From: Candidatus Omnitrophota bacterium | Lineage (GTDB): Bacteria > Omnitrophota > Omnitrophia > Omnitrophales > Aquincolibacteriaceae | Assembly: GCA_035352955.1 (NCBI GenBank) | Contig: DAOPYQ010000002.1 | Span: 140,518-204,517 of the forward strand | DNA length: 64,000 nt | Reading direction: 5' to 3' | In this document: piece after piece, positions 44,620 to 50,872 of the stretch | Numbering within the stretch: position 1 is the first letter of the stretch | How the letters are laid out: the number at the start of each line of letters is the position of its first letter | Position numbers and translations under genes: made by a program | The notes under the pieces: model-generated | The model's input: only the letters and a program-made list of their open reading frames with translations | Told to the model about the DNA's origin: nothing | Database searches by the model: none

Positions 44620-45085
44620 GAACTCTTCGCCCCACACTAACTCTACGACCGACACTAACTTTACGGCCGACACGAACCCTTCAACCGAAGCGAACTCTTC
44701 GACCCACACTAACTCTCCGTCCTACACAACTCTCCGGCCTACGCAACTCTCCGACCAGCGCTAATTCTCCGCCTACACGAACTCTGCAGCCGGCACGAAC
44801 CCTTCAACCGAAGCGAACTCTTCGACCAGAACTAACTTTCCGACCCACACTAACTCTCCGTCCCACACGACTCTCCGGCCTACGCAACTCTCCGACCAGC
44901 GCTAATTCTCCGCCTACACGAACTCTGCCGCCGGCACGAACACCTCAACCGAAGCGAACTCTCCGGCCAGAACTGACTTTCCGGCCCACACTAACTCGTC
45001 CGTCAACACCAGTTCTCCAGCCAACTCAAATTCTCCGTCTTACACAACTTTCTGTCCCACACGGTTCTCCGCACCACACCCCCAC
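44620..45085. repeat. Array of ~26 tandem degenerate 17-18-bp repeats (consensus ~YACACNAACTCTYCGRCC) with a higher-order ~123-141-bp periodicity (~3.5 copies)
   Basis: Read directly. The landmark cacgaac(c/a)c(c/t)tcaaccgaagcgaactc recurs at 44671, 44794 and 44935. One frame is open across the array but has no start codon. Confidence 0.85.
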
Positions 45086-45092
45086 GGCTATT

Positions 45093-45122
45093 TTGCCGTA
45101 TATCATATATGATATACGGCAA
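45093..45122. promoter_or_regulatory. 30-bp perfect palindrome TTGCCGTATATCATATATGATATACGGCAA (candidate operator for a dimeric HTH regulator, or hairpin)
   Basis: Checked base by base: the reverse complement equals the sequence itself. Lies between the repeat array and the 3' end of the minus-strand island genes, ~500 bp upstream of the XRE gene start. Confidence 0.8.
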
Positions 45123-45252
45123 GAAACCCATGGAATTGAACTCGGTCGGCTTATGAGTGTCCGGGCTACAGACTTCGAACGGACTGAGACCTGGCGGTGT
45201 CGTAGAAAGAACGTTGGCCTCCCTGCCGGGGGCCAAACGGAGGTCCGCGGTC

Positions 45253-45556: not shown

Positions 45557-47635
45557 CTACTTTTTTTTACCACTAGGTGTCGCTCCGAGTCGGAAGTACA
45601 ACCGCTCATAAGTGTCGAGCAACTTATCCATCATTTTGTCAGCAGCATCCACTCTTTCAGGGCTTCGCAATTTAGAAAGCAGGTCGATCAACGCCTTTGC
45701 TGGCAACTTGATCACTACGGTTCTTTCATGCTCGTGATATATTTCACGAACCCAATCCAATTCCTTACCTTTTTCCAAATTCACGCTCTCAGCTCGATTA
45801 ACAATAAAACCAAGGCGTCCATACTCTCCCGTCAAGTAAGATAACATTTGCCTATATTCTTGAGGCCCCAGATCAGCTGAGAAATTTTTAATCTCAAATA
45901 TTACTTGGCGAACGCCATAGTCATGGAGAATCCGCTGCCACGCATCTGTTTTCCCGTTATTTCGCGCAACAACATCCCTACGTTGCGTCGCGTTTTTATT
46001 AGGATGCAGCTCGGCGCTCACTAGCCCCCCAGCAAATACAATTTTTAATACTGTCAAACACCACTCCTCAAACTCTGTTGCGCCGGTGTCGCCATGAGGA
46101 ATTTTTGCCAGCTCCGCCATTAGTTGGCCCAATTTCTTTTTTCTGATTTCGGGGGTTTCAGACGACACTTCGATATCGTACTCATCGTGGATTTCATCAA
46201 CTTCCGCCGCTGGCAGTTTTTCCTCTTCGAGATTCAACGCGATCCAATAGCATGGATGCACAAGCAATTCCGTCTCTCTAACAACCAAAAAATCAGGATC
46301 TTTCCCATCGTGACAAAAAACAAAACTCGAGGCATCGTTCTTCCACACCCCTAAAAAACCAACGCTAAAAAGACACTTAACAATTTCTTCTGGCCTCTGA
46401 AATATTTTTAAGGTTTGAATTTCAACAGGCTTGAGGCTCTCATTGTTTATAATGTCATAAAGCAATTTTTCTATACTTCCAAAGGTGTTTTTTGCGCTGG
46501 CACCCGCAAACGCGTGTACGCAAAGACTCAAGCCTGGCACTATCCCTTCATATTCTTTCTTCAGGTCATCAAGACGCGAACAAGAAATTTCTCTAGCAGA
46601 CACATCAATATCATCTTCGTAGATTTCATTTCGTTTGTTCGACAGAGCATGGTTAAAAGCTCTATTCATTAAAACGATCAGATCTCTCGGCCGATATAGC
46701 GTCTGACGTAAGCATCGTCTGAAGCCCGTCATGCCACTCAATTCGCGAAAAGCTATTGCATTCCACACTTTAATGCTTTTATCATTCTCGATATTAAAAA
46801 CTTTTTGTATTCGGCTGCAAATCATATCGAGCAAATGTTGCTCATCCCAATGCAATCTCAAAACATCACCTTCGATATTTCGGGAATAATCAGGATCCTG
46901 CAACTGAATTGCTCTAAAAATATTGTCGCGTAGAAATGCGGTCGCTGTCGTCCTGGGCAAACTCGTACTAAGCTGGTCCAGGGCATAAAGCAGCCCTGTC
47001 AAAATAGCAACCCCCAACGAATCCGGCTCATACCCATCGTCTAATCTGTCAGCTAGAATTTTTACGGAGTAGTGTGCGCCATCAAGCACATTTGCTGCCA
47101 TTTTTTGGAGAGAGGTAATACCCAACGACGTTGTTAACGCGGCTATTCTCCGTTCAACAGGAACGGAGGTATCTACTTTTTCTTCTAAGGCCGAATATAG
47201 CCGTGCCGTTAGACTTTCCCCGCGGCGAGACCAACCTTGCGCCAAGATACGGATATCTGCTTTCTGCTCAGAATTTAATTTGTAATTATTCATACAAGCT
47301 ACAAGAATTTCATTCAGAACAGCATATTGCCACGCAATGTTACATGCCGCGCGCAAATAATTTTGTTTTTCTCCAAACAAAGAAACGAGACTGCGTAAAC
47401 CTATAACGTCTGCTTCTCCAGGGGTTAGATCAATTACTGTAGTCTTGACCGCATCATGCAAATAGCTCTTTAGCTTATAGTGAAGAGCACTCTTCCCCGT
47501 TCCTCTCCGGCCAACGACAATACGCCTTTTACTTTCTTCAATCAGCGATCTGTATTCGGAGGTTTCATAGAAAGCATGGTCTAGCATGTATTGATCTAAT
47601 TCTGCCCGTAAGTCACCCAATGGATTAGTTTTCAT
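45557..47635 (-). CDS. P-loop NTPase fused to a C-terminal Mrr-like PD-(D/E)xK restriction-endonuclease domain (candidate defence/toxin protein) in a low-GC island
   Basis: Walker A VGRRGTGKSAL and Walker B ILADRLDDGY. C-terminus FEEWCLTVLKIVFAGG…RRDVVARN…VIFEIKNFS fits Mrr_cat (E…D…(E)xK). Gene GC ~43% versus ~58% for the surrounding genes. Confidence 0.6.
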   Translation of the reverse strand: MKTNPLGDLRAELDQYMLDHAFYETSEYRSLIEESKRRIVVGRRGTGKSALHYKLKSYLHDAVKTTVIDLTPGEADVIGLRSLVSLFGEKQNYLRAACNIAWQYAVLNEILVACMNNYKLNSEQKADIRILAQGWSRRGESLTARLYSALEEKVDTSVPVERRIAALTTSLGITSLQKMAANVLDGAHYSVKILADRLDDGYEPDSLGVAILTGLLYALDQLSTSLPRTTATAFLRDNIFRAIQLQDPDYSRNIEGDVLRLHWDEQHLLDMICSRIQKVFNIENDKSIKVWNAIAFRELSGMTGFRRCLRQTLYRPRDLIVLMNRAFNHALSNKRNEIYEDDIDVSAREISCSRLDDLKKEYEGIVPGLSLCVHAFAGASAKNTFGSIEKLLYDIINNESLKPVEIQTLKIFQRPEEIVKCLFSVGFLGVWKNDASSFVFCHDGKDPDFLVVRETELLVHPCYWIALNLEEEKLPAAEVDEIHDEYDIEVSSETPEIRKKKLGQLMAELAKIPHGDTGATEFEEWCLTVLKIVFAGGLVSAELHPNKNATQRRDVVARNNGKTDAWQRILHDYGVRQVIFEIKNFSADLGPQEYRQMLSYLTGEYGRLGFIVNRAESVNLEKGKELDWVREIYHEHERTVVIKLPAKALIDLLSKLRSPERVDAADKMMDKLLDTYERLYFRLGATPSGKKK

Positions 47636-47844
47636 GTCAATCCTTCCTTTTTAAAATCACCGCACAATACAAGTAATAGCCCCTTCGAACGAATAATTAC
47701 TCGCTAACGCGAACCACTGAATTCCGGGGGCACATTACTTAATGCTATTCCCTCACCCGAACTGCGAGACCTTTTCGCAAGAGTTCGTTATTGAGATAAT
47801 CACCTCGCCAAGCTGAGATTCTTCGCTTTGCTCAGAATGACGAA

Positions 47845-47880
47845 AACAAAAAAGGCGGTTTCCCTTTTGAGGAAACCGCC
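47845..47880 (-). terminator. Rho-independent terminator-like hairpin (minus-strand orientation) inside the island's non-coding remnant
   Basis: ggcggtttcc-cttttga-ggaaaccgcc perfect 10-bp stem, preceded on the plus strand by aacaaaaaa (U-run on the minus strand). Confidence 0.5.
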
Positions 47881-48293
47881 TCAGACAATGCAAAAAGACG
47901 AGAATCCCACCGCCCCAAGCTGATAGCCTGGAGCGTACCCGGCTCTCGCGCTGTTCGCTCGTGTCCGGTTACGGGCACTCGATCAAAAAAAACACTGCGT
48001 GAATTCTCTGCTCCTACATCCCAAGTTTCAAGGAAAATTAGCGATTTTTTTCGGAAAATTCTTTTACTCGCTTCCCCGAACGGGAAAAGTTTCAAGGGAT
48101 ATTACGGCCGCAGTCCACGGACTGCAGACTGAAGACCGGAGACGGAAAATCTGTGTTCTCGGATCTGACAGACTCTTTCCTAAAATGTTCCTCGAACACG
48201 CCGATCAATTTCGTTCAATTTATAGCATTCATGGAATTCTTTTTAAATCATATTTTATTTGATTAATCGTGAATCTCATGATATCCTTTCCTT

Positions 48294-48842
48294 ATGAGAA
48301 ACAAATCGGAACTCATAAAGCTTGAGAAAGTCACCCGAAGAATCTTCCTTATCCGTGGCCAGCGCGTAATCATGGACTCCGACCTGGCCGGGGTCTACGG
48401 CGTTAAGACCAAATCTCTGAACTTGGCCGTCAAACGTAACGGCGCGAAATTCCCCGCCGATTTCATGTTCCAGTTGACCCGCAAGGAGGACGAAACTTTG
48501 AGGTTTCAAATTGAAACCTCAAAAAAGACACGGGGCGGCAGACGTTACCTGCCCTACGCCTTCACCGAACACGGGGCCATCATGGCAGCGAATGTCCTGA
48601 ACAGCCCCCACGCGATACAAATGAGCGTTTTTGTGGTGAGAGCTTTTATCAAAATGCGGTCTTTGTTATCGGACAACAAAAAACTCGCCGAAGAACTGAG
48701 GGCGCTGGAAAAGAAGCTGACCGGACGGCTGAATGTTCATGAAATCGCGATCGTGGATGTTTTGCGAAAGCTCATGAAATTACTCGAGCCCCCACCCGAA
48801 GTCCCCATTCCCGAGAAGCCGCCCATTGGGTTCCAACCGTAG
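48294..48842 (+). CDS. ORF6N-domain protein (phage/mobile-element associated KilA-N-like DNA-binding protein)
   Basis: IRGQRVIMDSDLAGVYGVKTKSLNLAVKRNGAKFPADFMFQLT…GGRRYLPYAFTEHGAIMAANVL is collinear with ORF6N family proteins. Confidence 0.7.
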   Translation: MRNKSELIKLEKVTRRIFLIRGQRVIMDSDLAGVYGVKTKSLNLAVKRNGAKFPADFMFQLTRKEDETLRFQIETSKKTRGGRRYLPYAFTEHGAIMAANVLNSPHAIQMSVFVVRAFIKMRSLLSDNKKLAEELRALEKKLTGRLNVHEIAIVDVLRKLMKLLEPPPEVPIPEKPPIGFQP

Positions 48843-48876: not shown

Positions 48877-50049
48877 TCAGCTCTGTACTTTGACGGCTAG
48901 TCCCTTTTGCAAAAGTTCGTTGTTGAGGTAGAGCTGTTTGCCGTCCTTTGAGGTTACCCAGACGTCGGCTAAGTACCTGTCATATTTGTCGGACTTGGTG
49001 GTTTTAATCAATATTGCGGGACACGGGCCACGGTCCACGGAACACGCCAGGACCTGCTCGACAAAGGCTTTGGCTTCCTTCCCTTCCTTGCTGATCAGTT
49101 CCGGGCAGTCAATAGCGCGAAGGCGCAGGGTCTGGACACTGCGGACGCCAAAGCCGAGGTCGACCACGGCTTCCAGCGTGTCTCCGTCGAGCACCCTTTT
49201 CACCCAGGCGCGGTAAGTGTAAAGGTCCCCTTCCGTGCGTTTGGAAAGACGGATCAAATCCGCGGGCGCGGAGCCTCCTCCCGCGAACGGAGGCGTGGAT
49301 TCGATCAGAGCGCCTTCTTTGAAACGGAGATCCTTGGAGGTCTTGTAATAATTGGAAAACCCAAGATCAATCACCACCTTACCGGTCTCGGGACCCGACA
49401 GGGCTTTGACGACGCGGTACGTCCCGGGCTTCCCGGGTTCGGCTTTGAGCGAGGGAGAAGATTCCACCGGCTCTGCGGCGGCGCGGGCTTCGGCCTTCGC
49501 CTTCCCGACCTTGACCTTCTTCACTTCCTCGCGGGTTTGGTCGCGGTTCCATTTCTCTTTCACCGCTTTTGCGGCAAGGGTTTCCCTTTCTTTGGGATCG
49601 TTGACCGCAAGAAGGGCCTGGTACTGGCTCCAGCTCAATTCATCGGCCGGCCGATGAATTGGGTACGTCCGCGCGAATTGGAGCATGTAGCGTAGTTCGG
49701 TCTCACTCTGGCCAAGGTCCGCGGCAAGACGCTTCATAACCTGTTGGCCGTAGTCCGCGCGCTCTTTGTGCTGGAGGACATGCGTGTCAATGAGCTTGCC
49801 GATCTCCCACGCTTCGCGGACCTTCTCCTGGTCGACGGCCTTCTCGACACGGGCCACGCTCTGCGCCCGGGCGTCTCTCACGGCCGTCAGGAGTTCCTCA
49901 TAAGTCGTCACGGACGCCGCGGCGGGCGCAGCGCCCGGGCCGGCGACTTCTTTGGGAGTTTCTTTTTTCCCGGGGGTTTCGGCAAAGACAAGCGCGGGTG
50001 AAACAAGAAGCAACGCGAGGGATAAAGCGGAGAGAGCTGTCCTTTTCAT
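48877..50049 (-). CDS. Secreted nuclease: signal peptide + DUF1016_N (YhcG N-terminal-like) domain + C-terminal staphylococcal-nuclease (SNase/thermonuclease) domain
   Basis: Start MKRTALSALSLALLLVSPALVFA (RBS AGGAAAGG). REAWEIGKLI…ADYGQQVMKRLAADLG…LSWSQYQALL resembles DUF1016_N. C-terminal VLDGDTLEAV…RLRAIDCPE…DKYDRYLADV matches SNase catalytic motifs. Confidence 0.65.
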   Translation of the reverse strand: MKRTALSALSLALLLVSPALVFAETPGKKETPKEVAGPGAAPAAASVTTYEELLTAVRDARAQSVARVEKAVDQEKVREAWEIGKLIDTHVLQHKERADYGQQVMKRLAADLGQSETELRYMLQFARTYPIHRPADELSWSQYQALLAVNDPKERETLAAKAVKEKWNRDQTREEVKKVKVGKAKAEARAAAEPVESSPSLKAEPGKPGTYRVVKALSGPETGKVVIDLGFSNYYKTSKDLRFKEGALIESTPPFAGGGSAPADLIRLSKRTEGDLYTYRAWVKRVLDGDTLEAVVDLGFGVRSVQTLRLRAIDCPELISKEGKEAKAFVEQVLACSVDRGPCPAILIKTTKSDKYDRYLADVWVTSKDGKQLYLNNELLQKGLAVKVQS

Positions 50050-50232
50050 GGAGAACCTTTCCTTAATGAGAGACCGGCTTCCAAAGAATGAGAAACCGAG
50101 GTGAGAATATTCTTCCCCGCCCCGCCTTGCAACACTTTTTATGGGGCTTCCCCCCGGGGCAGAAAATGCGGCCAAAACTTGCAATATGTGTGCGCACATA
50201 TTATACTTGTATTAGAAAATAAGGAGGACCCT

Positions 50233-50457
50233 ATGCCGAACATGACACTCTCGATCCCTGCCGACCTGAAGGCAAAAATGGACCGTTTCAGGGAGATCAA
50301 CTGGTCCGAGGTCGCGAGACAGGCGATCTTTCAAAAGACCCTTGTCATGGACCGAATGAATCAGCTGATGTCCTCCAGTAAGATCAGTGAGCCGGAAACC
50401 GTCTACGAAGCCCGCAAGATCAGCCGCAAGGTCGCGAAAAAACACAAAGCATCCTGA
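50233..50457 (+). CDS. Putative antitoxin (small RHH/VapB-like protein)
   Basis: 74-aa ORF with strong RBS AAGGAGG. Its stop overlaps the downstream PIN gene start (TGATATGG). Confidence 0.45.
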   Translation: MPNMTLSIPADLKAKMDRFREINWSEVARQAIFQKTLVMDRMNQLMSSSKISEPETVYEARKISRKVAKKHKAS

Positions 50458-50458
50458 T

Positions 50459-50872
50459 ATGGAGCTGGTGGTCGACGCCAACATTCTTCTGGCGGGCTTC
50501 ATGAAAACCGCCGTGACGCGGGAACTTCTTCTGGACTCCCGGCTAAAGCTGCACGCGCCGGAATATTTGGTCTATGAAACCCGAAAACACCTTCTCGGAA
50601 ATTCCGACCTGAAACGCCGCATCGGTCTTTCCGCCAGTGAGATCGATAAGATATGGTTCCTTCTTACCCAGAATATCGAATCCCACGCACAGGGAGACTA
50701 CCAAAAAGCCCACGCAACGGCACTCAAACTTGCGCCCCATGCCGAGGATGCTCCTTACCTCGCATTGGCGCTGAGCATGAACATACCCGTGTGGTCGAAT
50801 GACAAGGCGATGGCCATGCAGCCCAGGATCCGAATCCTGACGACACGCGACATTCTTGTCATGCTCCGTTAG
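50459..50872 (+). CDS. PIN-domain toxin (VapC-like)
   Basis: MELVVDANILLAGFM… N-terminal PIN acidic-residue pattern; 137 aa; tightly coupled to the preceding small ORF. Confidence 0.55.
   Translation: MELVVDANILLAGFMKTAVTRELLLDSRLKLHAPEYLVYETRKHLLGNSDLKRRIGLSASEIDKIWFLLTQNIESHAQGDYQKAHATALKLAPHAEDAPYLALALSMNIPVWSNDKAMAMQPRIRILTTRDILVMLR

What the first reader, a model, noticed from the sequence alone, without database searches (positions are those of the whole stretch)
48877..50049. Secreted DUF1016_N-SNase fusion: a YhcG-like N-terminal domain whose usual PD-(D/E)xK nuclease is replaced by a thermonuclease domain, behind a signal peptide
Residues ~60-200 align with the N-terminal domain of YhcG/DUF1016 proteins (REAWEIGKLI, ADYGQQVMKRLAADLG, LSWSQYQALL), which normally precedes a PD-(D/E)xK nuclease and is associated with mobile and defence islands.

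Here the C-terminus instead carries staphylococcal-nuclease motifs (VLDGDTLEAV, RLRAIDCPE, DKYDRYLADV), and the protein starts with a classical signal peptide (MKRTALSALSLALLLVSPALVFA).

A nuclease-module swap in a family usually considered cytoplasmic, plus export, suggests an extracellular or periplasmic DNA-degrading function (entry exclusion, eDNA or biofilm remodelling, nutrient scavenging) that may use the DUF1016_N domain as a DNA-recognition module.
Basis: partly seen in the sequence, partly recalled or inferred. Interest (0 to 1): 0.6.

Follow-up and report, generated by a model that had tools for sequence, protein, structure and literature searches.

The report
Exported DNA-binding thermonuclease of Omnitrophota
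This gene from an uncultivated Omnitrophota bacterium encodes a staphylococcal-type nuclease joined to a ParB-like DNA-binding domain and an export signal; it belongs to a large uncharacterised family whose older branches stay inside the cell next to restriction systems, so this branch looks like a defence-type nuclease relocated outside the cytoplasm.

Summary

The fusion is not a one-off. There are 932 50%-identity clusters at E<=1e-30, almost all named members from Candidatus Omnitrophota, and up to six diverged copies per genome.

The signal peptide is specific to one clade. The query's clade is about 80% SP-positive. Its mature part is Cys-poor and far less basic than in SP-less members. 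Nearly all deeper branches lack a signal peptide and sit in YhcG-type contexts, for example directly after a type I R-M operon.

Best reading: an exported, probably Ca2+-dependent nuclease tethered to a DNA-binding module, derived from a cytoplasmic defence-island nuclease. Its role (feeding on prey or environmental DNA, or periplasmic defence) is untested.

Also noticed: the gene's 3' end is a recurrent insertion site, with displaced 3'-end relics in the window and at least six other loci.

Novelty: new variant of a known kind. Interest is moderate.

The parts
48877..50049 (-). Complete CDS (390 aa plus stop) of the exported DUF1016_N / beta-barrel / SNase protein
   Evidence: ORF and translation. 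100% identical to P0001 on a 292-kb JGI contig, and 496 homologues.
50056..50064 (-). Shine-Dalgarno-like AAGGAAAGG, 6 nt before the ATG at 50049
   Evidence: Sequence. Homologues start at the equivalent Met.
49981..50049 (-). Signal peptide, residues 1-23 (MKR n-region, hydrophobic h-region, SPALVFA c-region; predicted cleavage VFA|E)
   Evidence: Heuristic anatomy. The same pattern is present in 171 family members: 94% have a net-positive n-region, 161/171 have a (-3,-1) motif, none has a lipobox. Predicted helix 3-22.
49912..49980 (-). Low-complexity P/A/E/K-rich linker, residues 24-46, predicted disordered
   Evidence: pLDDT <50 for residues 23-40. In the family the linker length ranges from 0 to 97 residues and is A/P/S/T/E-rich.
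49465..49911 (-). Helical DUF1016_N domain (residues 47-195) with a ParB/KorB-type HTH DNA-binding fold, including a long first helix 50-92
49225..49437 (-). Small five-stranded beta-barrel (residues 205-275) of unassigned family, with an invariant G219 and DLGF 228-231
48880..49224 (-). SNase (thermonuclease) catalytic domain, residues 276-390, ending after helix alpha2; it lacks the alpha3 helix and the Y113/Y115 loop of S. aureus nuclease
47745..47798 (-). Relic copy of the gene's last 16-17 codons plus stop (YLNNELLRKGLAVRVRE*), ~1.08 kb downstream on the same strand
   Evidence: tblastn E=0.004 against the whole window, 81% aa identity. Sequence read directly. Analogous 3'-end relics occur in L005, L018, L021, L034, L065 and L072.
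48294..48842 (+). ORF6N (KilA-N-like) gene lying between the gene's stop and the 3'-end relic; probable inserted cassette (context, not part of the protein)
   Evidence: Pfam ORF6N E=2e-30. PADLOC PDC-S05 E=2e-50. ORF6N homologues lie within two genes of the target in 4 of the other loci.

Best explanation
The gene encodes a nuclease that is exported across the inner membrane by the Sec pathway. The signal peptide is predicted to be cleaved after VFA23.

The mature protein has four parts:
- a flexible Pro/Ala-rich linker;
- a helical DUF1016_N domain with the fold of the ParB/KorB/SopB HTH DNA-binding domains;
- a small beta-barrel;
- a C-terminal staphylococcal-nuclease-type catalytic domain with the complete Ca2+-binding and catalytic set (equivalents of D21, D40, R35, E43, R87).

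Proposed mechanism (inferred): in the periplasm or outside the cell, the helical domain, perhaps with the barrel, holds double-stranded DNA. The SNase domain then hydrolyses it in a Ca2+-dependent reaction. This compartment is where such enzymes normally find millimolar Ca2+, so the enzyme stays harmless in the cytoplasm.

Evolution (inferred from distribution): the DUF1016_N-barrel-SNase fusion arose as a cytoplasmic analogue of YhcG, that is, DUF1016_N with its PD-(D/E)xK nuclease replaced. That form still sits beside R-M, toxin-antitoxin and Abi genes. One clade, expanded to several paralogues per genome in Omnitrophota, later gained the signal peptide and linker, lost cysteines and lost about 7 net positive charges from the DNA-binding domain.

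Likely role: degradation of foreign DNA outside the cytoplasm. That could be prey, host or environmental DNA for these putatively predatory or parasitic nanobacteria, or incoming DNA.

Shown here: architecture, fold, residue conservation, signal-peptide anatomy, family size and distribution, and contexts. Inferred: export, activity, DNA binding and biological role.
For: Domains and folds:
- Pfam DUF1016_N and SNase above cut-off.
- AF2 model with mean pLDDT 86.4.

Catalytic residues: invariant in 63 sequences and in 171 SP plus 123 SP-less members.

Signal peptide:
- The start codon is supported by an SD sequence and by homologues.
- Of 171 SP members, 94% have a net-positive n-region, the uncharged stretch has a median of 20 residues, 161/171 have a (-3,-1) motif, none has a lipobox, and an acidic residue usually follows.
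- The polarity (positive before, acidic after) places the body outside the cytoplasm.

Compartment-consistent composition:
- Cys mean is 0.36 in SP members against 1.54 in SP-less members.
- Net charge is +2 against +12, with the difference mainly in DUF1016_N.

Clade structure: the query's cluster has 161 SP / 30 noSP / 6 ambiguous members, and nearly all of the ~34 deeper clusters are noSP.

SP-less contexts: directly after hsdM-hsdS-rhuM-macro-hsdR (L084), between HigB/HTH and AbiEii (L085), near an IS3 element (L083). This matches the known DUF1016 contexts (PMC3424549; PMC9881135).

Family size, taxonomy and paralogy.

Organism biology: Omnitrophota are proposed to be predators or parasites (PMC10066038).
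Against: - No SignalP or experimental test of export was possible. The N-terminal helix could be an uncleaved signal anchor.
- The SNase domain lacks the C-terminal ~30 profile positions (the alpha3 helix and the Y113/Y115 loop). In S. aureus nuclease these contribute to stability and substrate contacts (from memory), so activity could be reduced or depend on packing against the other domains.
- The exported clade's DUF1016_N is much less basic than that of its cytoplasmic relatives, which may mean weaker or altered nucleic-acid binding.
- More than 75% of Omnitrophota genomes encode nucleotide biosynthesis, so nucleotide auxotrophy is not a strong driver.
- No secretion system, competence gene or other conserved partner accompanies the gene.
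- The SP/noSP tree is unrooted average-linkage clustering, so 'gain' rather than multiple losses is a parsimony inference.
Confidence: 0.6

Rival explanations
1. Membrane-tethered rather than released. The N-terminal hydrophobic segment is an uncleaved signal anchor, so the nuclease is displayed on the periplasmic face of the inner membrane at the end of its flexible linker (as in S. aureus Nuc2). There it would act on DNA entering the periplasm, for uptake processing or as a barrier.
For: The uncharged stretch (median 20, IQR 18-23 residues) is at the long end for cleaved signal peptides. A variable low-complexity linker of 0-97 residues follows, which is typical of tethers. The n-region is positive and acidic residues follow, giving an N-in/C-out orientation.
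Against: 161/171 members have a small-residue (-3,-1) motif, usually preceded by a helix-breaking Pro/Gly and followed by E/D/A. This is what SPase I substrates look like. The measured 20 residues include the c-region.
Confidence: 0.2
2. Still a defence-island nuclease in function. The exported clade performs an immunity role like its SP-less, R-M-associated relatives, but in the periplasm. It would cut invading phage, plasmid or competitor DNA (an 'extracytoplasmic restriction'), and the paralogue expansion would reflect an arms race.
For: The DUF1016_N part matches PADLOC defence-candidate PDC-S02. SP-less relatives sit in R-M, TA and Abi contexts. The window copy is flanked by a PIN/RHH pair, an ORF6N gene (PDC-S05) and a P-loop protein weakly similar to PDC-M36A. 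There are up to six diverged paralogues per genome, and the barrel domain is the most variable part.
Against: Phage DNA is normally injected through a protected channel and is not exposed in the periplasm (general knowledge). No self/non-self discrimination partner such as a methylase is linked. PDC-S02 itself is an untested candidate. Several SP copies sit beside housekeeping genes: argG-argH-lysA, ligA, xerD, purL.
Confidence: 0.12
3. Non-catalytic or non-DNA function. The truncated SN-like domain serves as a binding module (as in Tudor-SN/eTudor proteins), and the less basic DUF1016_N binds something other than DNA. The protein would then be a periplasmic scaffold or adhesin.
Confidence: 0.06

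Closest known systems
Staphylococcus aureus thermonuclease (Nuc, SNase; Pfam PF00565) and other secreted thermonuclease-family proteins (B. subtilis YncB type)
   Different: It carries ~250 extra N-terminal residues (DUF1016_N and a beta-barrel). It lacks the C-terminal alpha3 helix and the Y113/Y115 loop (Pfam profile positions 77-107 are absent). It has a 5-residue VVDLGFG insertion in the beta2-beta3 hairpin.
YhcG / DUF1016 family (PF17761 N-domain + PF06250 PD-(D/E)xK nuclease; PADLOC candidate PDC-S02)
   Same: Homologous N-terminal domain (Pfam E=4e-20; PADLOC E=1e-25). The overall logic is the same: an N-terminal helical module followed by a C-terminal nuclease. SP-less relatives of the target occupy the same niche in type I R-M/defence loci.
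   Different: The PD-(D/E)xK domain is replaced by a beta-barrel plus an SNase domain. The window protein and its clade carry an export signal and a less basic, Cys-poor body.
ParB/Spo0J, KorB and SopB HTH DNA-binding domains
   Different: No ParB N-terminal CTPase domain and no C-terminal dimerisation domain. The sequence similarity is below the Pfam cut-off. The protein is not part of a partition operon.
Surface or secreted nucleases with accessory DNA-binding modules (S. aureus membrane-anchored Nuc2; streptococcal SpnA/SsnA with OB folds; Vibrio Xds and Shewanella ExeM with LTD/OB domains). Recalled from memory, not tested here.
   Same: The same design principle: an exported nuclease domain joined to extra nucleic-acid-binding domains and/or a tether.
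   Different: The accessory domains differ; none is known to use a DUF1016_N/ParB-type HTH. Most also have different catalytic folds (EEP). PADLOC's 'SNc+LTD' profile matches only weakly (E=1e-4).

Membership tests
SNase / thermonuclease (PF00565) | Sequence match to the family profile above the curated threshold | tested here: met
   33.7 bits against cut-off 21, E=5.4e-8. PDB thermonuclease E=8e-5.
SNase / thermonuclease (PF00565) | OB-type five-stranded barrel with flanking helices | tested here: met
SNase / thermonuclease (PF00565) | Ca2+ ligands D21/D40 and catalytic R35, E43, R87 | tested here: met
   D290, D314, R309, E317 and R358 are invariant in A1. They are conserved at 89% or more in both the SP and noSP classes; the exception is D314N in 14/123 noSP members.
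SNase / thermonuclease (PF00565) | Complete domain including the Y113/Y115 loop and C-terminal helix alpha3 | tested here: not met
   The Pfam match covers profile positions 1-76 of 107 and the protein ends there. The model ends after alpha2, residues 375-381.
SNase / thermonuclease (PF00565) | Ca2+-dependent hydrolysis of DNA/RNA to 3'-phosphate products | not testable with these tools
   Requires enzymology.
YhcG / DUF1016 | DUF1016_N (PF17761) domain | tested here: met
   72.7 bits against cut-off 32.8. 24 PDC-S02 profiles match residues ~48-180.
YhcG / DUF1016 | C-terminal PD-(D/E)xK nuclease domain (PF06250) | tested here: not met
   No Pfam hit to PF06250 at E<=1. PDC-S02 profiles of ~350 positions match only at positions ~10-150. 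The C-terminus is an SNase domain instead.
YhcG / DUF1016 | Cytoplasmic protein embedded in R-M / mobile / defence loci | tested here: not met
   The window protein has a signal peptide. Its SP-less relatives do fit this feature (L084, L085).
ParB/KorB-type HTH DNA-binding domain | Helical HTH fold of the ParB DNA-binding domain | tested here: met
ParB/KorB-type HTH DNA-binding domain | Sequence membership (Pfam HTH_ParB) and the ParB N-terminal domain | tested here: not met
   HTH_ParB scores 17.3 bits, below the 22.6 cut-off, and there is no ParB_N hit.
ParB/KorB-type HTH DNA-binding domain | Binds double-stranded DNA | not testable with these tools
   Requires EMSA or a structure with DNA.
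Sec / signal peptidase I signal peptide | Positive n-region, hydrophobic h-region, small residues at -3/-1, no lipobox | tested here: met
   MKR + ALSALSLALLLVSPALVFA|E. Family-wide heuristics. SignalP was not available, so this is a rule-based test.
Sec / signal peptidase I signal peptide | Actual export and cleavage | not testable with these tools
   Requires reporter fusions or proteomics.
Polymorphic toxin system (considered because of the displaced 3' fragments) | Hypervariable C-terminal toxin domains with a cognate immunity gene immediately downstream | tested here: not met
   The C-terminal SNase is the best-conserved domain (mean pairwise identity 0.53). No conserved downstream partner was found in 82 loci.
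Diversity-generating retroelement (considered because of the 3'-end repeat) | A template repeat differing from the gene's 3' end at adenines, plus a nearby reverse transcriptase | tested here: not met
   The L065 repeat differences are T>G, C>T, C>T, G>A. Neighbouring genes have no RT domain.

The most novel reading that the evidence does not exclude
Omnitrophota have taken a cytoplasmic, R-M-associated DNA-targeting nuclease and relocated it outside the cytoplasm. They then expanded it into batteries of diverged paralogues that act as targeted weapons. These would either digest the chromosomes of the hosts or prey that these nanobacteria attach to, or form an 'extracytoplasmic restriction' layer that destroys foreign DNA before it reaches the cytoplasm. 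In this reading the conserved 3' end of these genes also serves as a dedicated docking site for small mobile cassettes and defence islands.
Probability: 0.12. Interest if true: 0.75.

Novelty: new variant of a known kind. Interest (0 to 1): 0.45.

Why it matters
- It gives DUF1016_N, a widespread domain of unknown function in R-M and defence loci, a concrete structural identity as a ParB/KorB-type DNA-binding fold.
- It provides a natural experiment. The same three-domain nuclease exists in cytoplasmic and exported versions, sometimes in one genome, with compositional changes that track the compartment.
- For Omnitrophota, an uncultivated phylum thought to be largely predatory or parasitic, a multi-copy exported DNA-binding nuclease is a candidate effector or nutrient-acquisition enzyme. 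It could be tested in vitro without cultivating the organism.
- The recurrent 3'-end relics mark a possible insertion hot-spot that could help delimit mobile and defence cassettes in these genomes.

Tried and rejected
- Internal duplication. I tested whether the middle barrel duplicates the N-terminal half of the SNase domain, because both carry TYR...V(V/I)DLGF. hhalign aligned only 9 columns at 49% probability, so this is not demonstrated.
- Conserved operon partner. Clustering 857 ORFs from 82 loci found none. The recurrent neighbours were generic (histidine kinases) or present in six loci or fewer: ORF6N, XerD-like, LigA, DUF4143 ATPase.
- Polymorphic-toxin and DGR explanations for the 3'-end relics were rejected.
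- Other copies in the window: only the 16-codon relic was found.
- Rfam and tRNA scans of 44-51 kb and 40-56 kb found nothing, so no tRNA-type attachment site.
- Literature searches for DUF1016, for Omnitrophota plus nuclease, and for RK2 ParB found no description of this fusion. The RK2 ParB/SNase relationship I recalled is disputed in PMC3482391, so I did not use it.
- The longer 440-aa reading from ATG 50199 was rejected. It has no SD sequence, its extension is not conserved, and it overlaps the divergent promoter region.

Full report
**1. Observation**

The interval 48877-50049 holds one intact ORF on the minus strand. The ORF can be extended to an ATG at 50199. The 50049 ATG is the real start, because it is preceded by AAGGAAAGG at 50056-50064 and homologues start at the equivalent MK(K/R).

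Pfam assigns two domains above their cut-offs:
- DUF1016_N at residues 62-177, 72.7 bits against a cut-off of 32.8, E=4.3e-20.
- SNase at residues 307-387, 33.7 bits against a cut-off of 21, E=5.4e-8.

S. aureus thermonuclease is the only solved relative found by sequence (E=8e-5).

**2. Anatomy**

An AlphaFold2 model built on a 63-sequence alignment is confident, with mean pLDDT 86.4. It shows, in order:
- an N-terminal helix (residues 3-22);
- a disordered linker (23-40);
- a helical domain (50-192) with a 43-residue first helix;
- a small beta domain (210-268, pLDDT ~95);
- an SNase-like domain (278-381).

The SNase equivalents of D19, D21, T22, R35, D40, E43, K84, Y85 and R87 are invariant in the alignment. 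The domain stops after helix alpha2, so Pfam profile positions 77-107 are absent. In S. aureus nuclease these correspond to the Y113/Y115 loop and helix alpha3. All family members end at the same place.

**3. Family**

The protein is not unique.
- A word-indexed search found 496 homologues. The best 120 have E<1e-93, and nearly all carry PF17761 plus PF00565.
- Named members are almost all Candidatus Omnitrophota MAG proteins, labelled 'DUF1016 N-terminal domain-containing protein', 'thermonuclease family protein' or 'endonuclease YncB'.
- An exhaustive profile search of 1.84 billion cluster representatives found 932 at E<=1e-30, and the top 150 all span the whole fusion.
- The window itself is Omnitrophota. 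The neighbouring YgiQ protein is 100% identical to an NCBI Omnitrophota MAG protein.
- Among GTDB species representatives there are 179 loci. The 79 kept come from 47 assemblies, with up to six copies per assembly. Copies within one genome are 49-87% identical, and the barrel is the most variable domain.

**4. Signal peptide: real, but clade-specific**

In close homologues the N-terminus always has K/R residues, a hydrophobic stretch and a small-x-small motif, even though the sequence itself diverges. I classified 336 family sequences by HMM coordinates. The result was 171 SP-like, 123 without any hydrophobic leader (median 15 residues before the first conserved helix), 35 fragments and 7 ambiguous.

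In the fetched loci I used the longest possible ORF, so the SP-less state of L063, L065, L066, L069, L072 and L080 is not a gene-calling artefact.

Average-linkage clustering puts the query in one cluster of 197 sequences: 161 SP, 30 noSP (several are truncated calls, but L003/P0072 is genuinely SP-less) and 6 ambiguous. Nearly all of the ~34 deeper clusters, about 100 sequences, are SP-less. One genome can hold both types, for example CAZEFF L049/L056 and JAFGHI L048/L061.

The SP class has the following anatomy:
- 94% have a net-positive n-region.
- The uncharged stretch has a median length of 20 residues.
- 161 of 171 have a (-3,-1) motif.
- None has a lipobox.
- The first charged residue afterwards is usually acidic.
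- An A/P/S/T/E-rich linker of 0-97 residues follows.

The conserved body also differs between the classes. Mean Cys count is 0.36 in SP members and 1.54 in SP-less members. Net charge is +2 against +12, and most of that difference lies in DUF1016_N (+1.2 against +8.2). Catalytic residues are kept in both classes.

**5. Context**

No operon partner is conserved across 82 loci.

SP-less members sit where YhcG proteins usually sit:
- L084 lies directly after hsdM-hsdS-rhuM-macro-hsdR.
- L085 lies between HigB/HTH and AbiEii.
- L083 lies near an IS3 element.

This agrees with published DUF1016 contexts (PMC3424549; PMC9881135). PADLOC matches only the N-domain of the target to its untested candidate PDC-S02.

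The window copy lies in a small variable patch between housekeeping genes. Those genes are YgiQ and an HI0933-like flavoprotein on one side and methyltransferases and a hydrolase on the other. The patch contains:
- a divergent RHH-like/PIN pair;
- a convergent ORF6N gene (PDC-S05);
- a 692-aa P-loop protein with no Pfam match;
- an XRE regulator.

Other SP copies lie next to argG-argH-lysA, ligA, xerD or purL.

**6. Noticed in passing: 3'-end relics**

In the window, 47745-47798 on the minus strand encodes YLNNELLRKGLAVRVRE*. This is a diverged copy of the gene's own last codons, ~1.08 kb downstream, with the ORF6N gene in between.

The same arrangement recurs in L005, L018, L021, L034, L065 and L072. 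In each case the fragment ends exactly at the C-terminus and lies downstream on the same strand. In L065 a 99-bp direct repeat (96% identical) flanks a ~1-kb insert that carries an HNH endonuclease gene. The repeat is the last 93 nt, the stop codon and 3 more nt, and it starts abruptly at the invariant R-Y-L-A-D codons. In L072 and in the window the gene after the relic belongs to the same otherwise unique protein cluster.

I read this as repeated insertion or recombination at the conserved 3' end, with the incoming DNA supplying a replacement gene end. Polymorphic-toxin and DGR explanations fail their defining tests.

**7. Mechanism and rivals**

The best-supported reading (confidence 0.6) is a Sec-exported, Ca2+-dependent SNase-type nuclease that is held on DNA by a ParB-like HTH module and perhaps by the barrel. 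It would derive from a cytoplasmic YhcG analogue. Architecture, fold, conservation and distribution are shown here. Export, activity, DNA binding and role are inferred.

Rivals:
- An uncleaved signal anchor that displays the enzyme on the membrane (0.2). This is a variant of the main reading.
- A periplasmic defence role (0.12).
- A non-catalytic scaffold (0.06). The invariant active site argues against it.

On the biological role, Omnitrophota are proposed to be predators or parasites, yet mostly retain nucleotide biosynthesis (PMC10066038). That favours attack on, or consumption of, foreign DNA over simple auxotrophy. Nothing here discriminates further.

**8. Comparison and novelty**

The protein works like a secreted thermonuclease and meets the SNase sequence, fold and active-site criteria, but it lacks the C-terminal third of the domain. 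It shares the N-domain of YhcG/DUF1016 but fails that family's PD-(D/E)xK criterion. It resembles the ParB/KorB DNA-binding domain by fold only.

Databases already hold hundreds of members under generic names, and no paper describing the fusion was found. I rate it a new variant of a known kind. Interest is moderate (0.45), for four reasons:
- the compartment switch within one nuclease family;
- the structural identity it gives DUF1016_N;
- the paralogue expansion in a putatively predatory phylum;
- the 3'-end insertion hot-spot.

Noticed in passing
window 47745-47798 (minus strand); also L005 12828-13100, L018 10074-10298, L021 7717-7896, L034 1699-1839, L065 2833-2931, L072 7094-7144: Diverged copies of the gene's own 3' end, always ending at the stop codon, lie downstream on the same strand. 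Inserted genes sit in between (ORF6N in the window; an HNH endonuclease flanked by a 96%-identical 99-bp direct repeat in L065). This suggests the conserved 3' end of this gene family is a recurrent insertion or recombination site where incoming DNA brings a replacement gene end.
   Followed up: partly
window 45557-47635 (minus strand); L072 7223-9649: A 692-aa P-loop protein (GRRGTGKS) has no Pfam match and only a weak PADLOC PDC-M36A hit to its C-terminus. Its only homologue among 82 loci (808 aa, L072) also lies immediately after a 3'-end relic of a DUF1016_N-SNase gene. It may be a defence-type cassette that travels with that junction.
   Followed up: partly
window 44621-45002: A non-coding tandem array of about 21.5 copies of an 18-nt unit (consensus AACTCTCCGACCGACACT, 71% matches, with higher-order 123/141-nt periodicity) lies between the XRE gene and the island. 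No long ORF spans it and there is no Rfam match.
   Followed up: partly
window 45082-45133: A 26+26-nt near-perfect palindrome (85% complementary, no spacer) lies just beyond the tandem array.
   Followed up: no
window 50233-50457 and 50459-50872 (plus strand): A divergently transcribed pair: a small RHH-like protein (MPNMTLSIPADLKAKMDRF...; a homologue lies near the target in L021) followed by a PIN_2 domain protein (Pfam E=2e-18). This is probably a toxin-antitoxin module immediately upstream of the nuclease gene.
   Followed up: partly
window 47852-47882 (minus strand): A strong terminator-like hairpin (13-bp stem plus a T tract) lies between the ORF6N cassette and the 3'-end relic.
   Followed up: no
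L014 8240-8791: A conventional stand-alone secreted thermonuclease (183 aa with a signal peptide) is encoded 1.2 kb downstream of a DUF1016_N-SNase paralogue in the same Omnitrophota genome.
   Followed up: no
L084 1-7044: An SP-less DUF1016_N-SNase gene sits directly downstream of hsdM-hsdS-rhuM-macro-hsdR. This is the position usually taken by YhcG/DUF1016 in type I R-M loci.
   Followed up: partly
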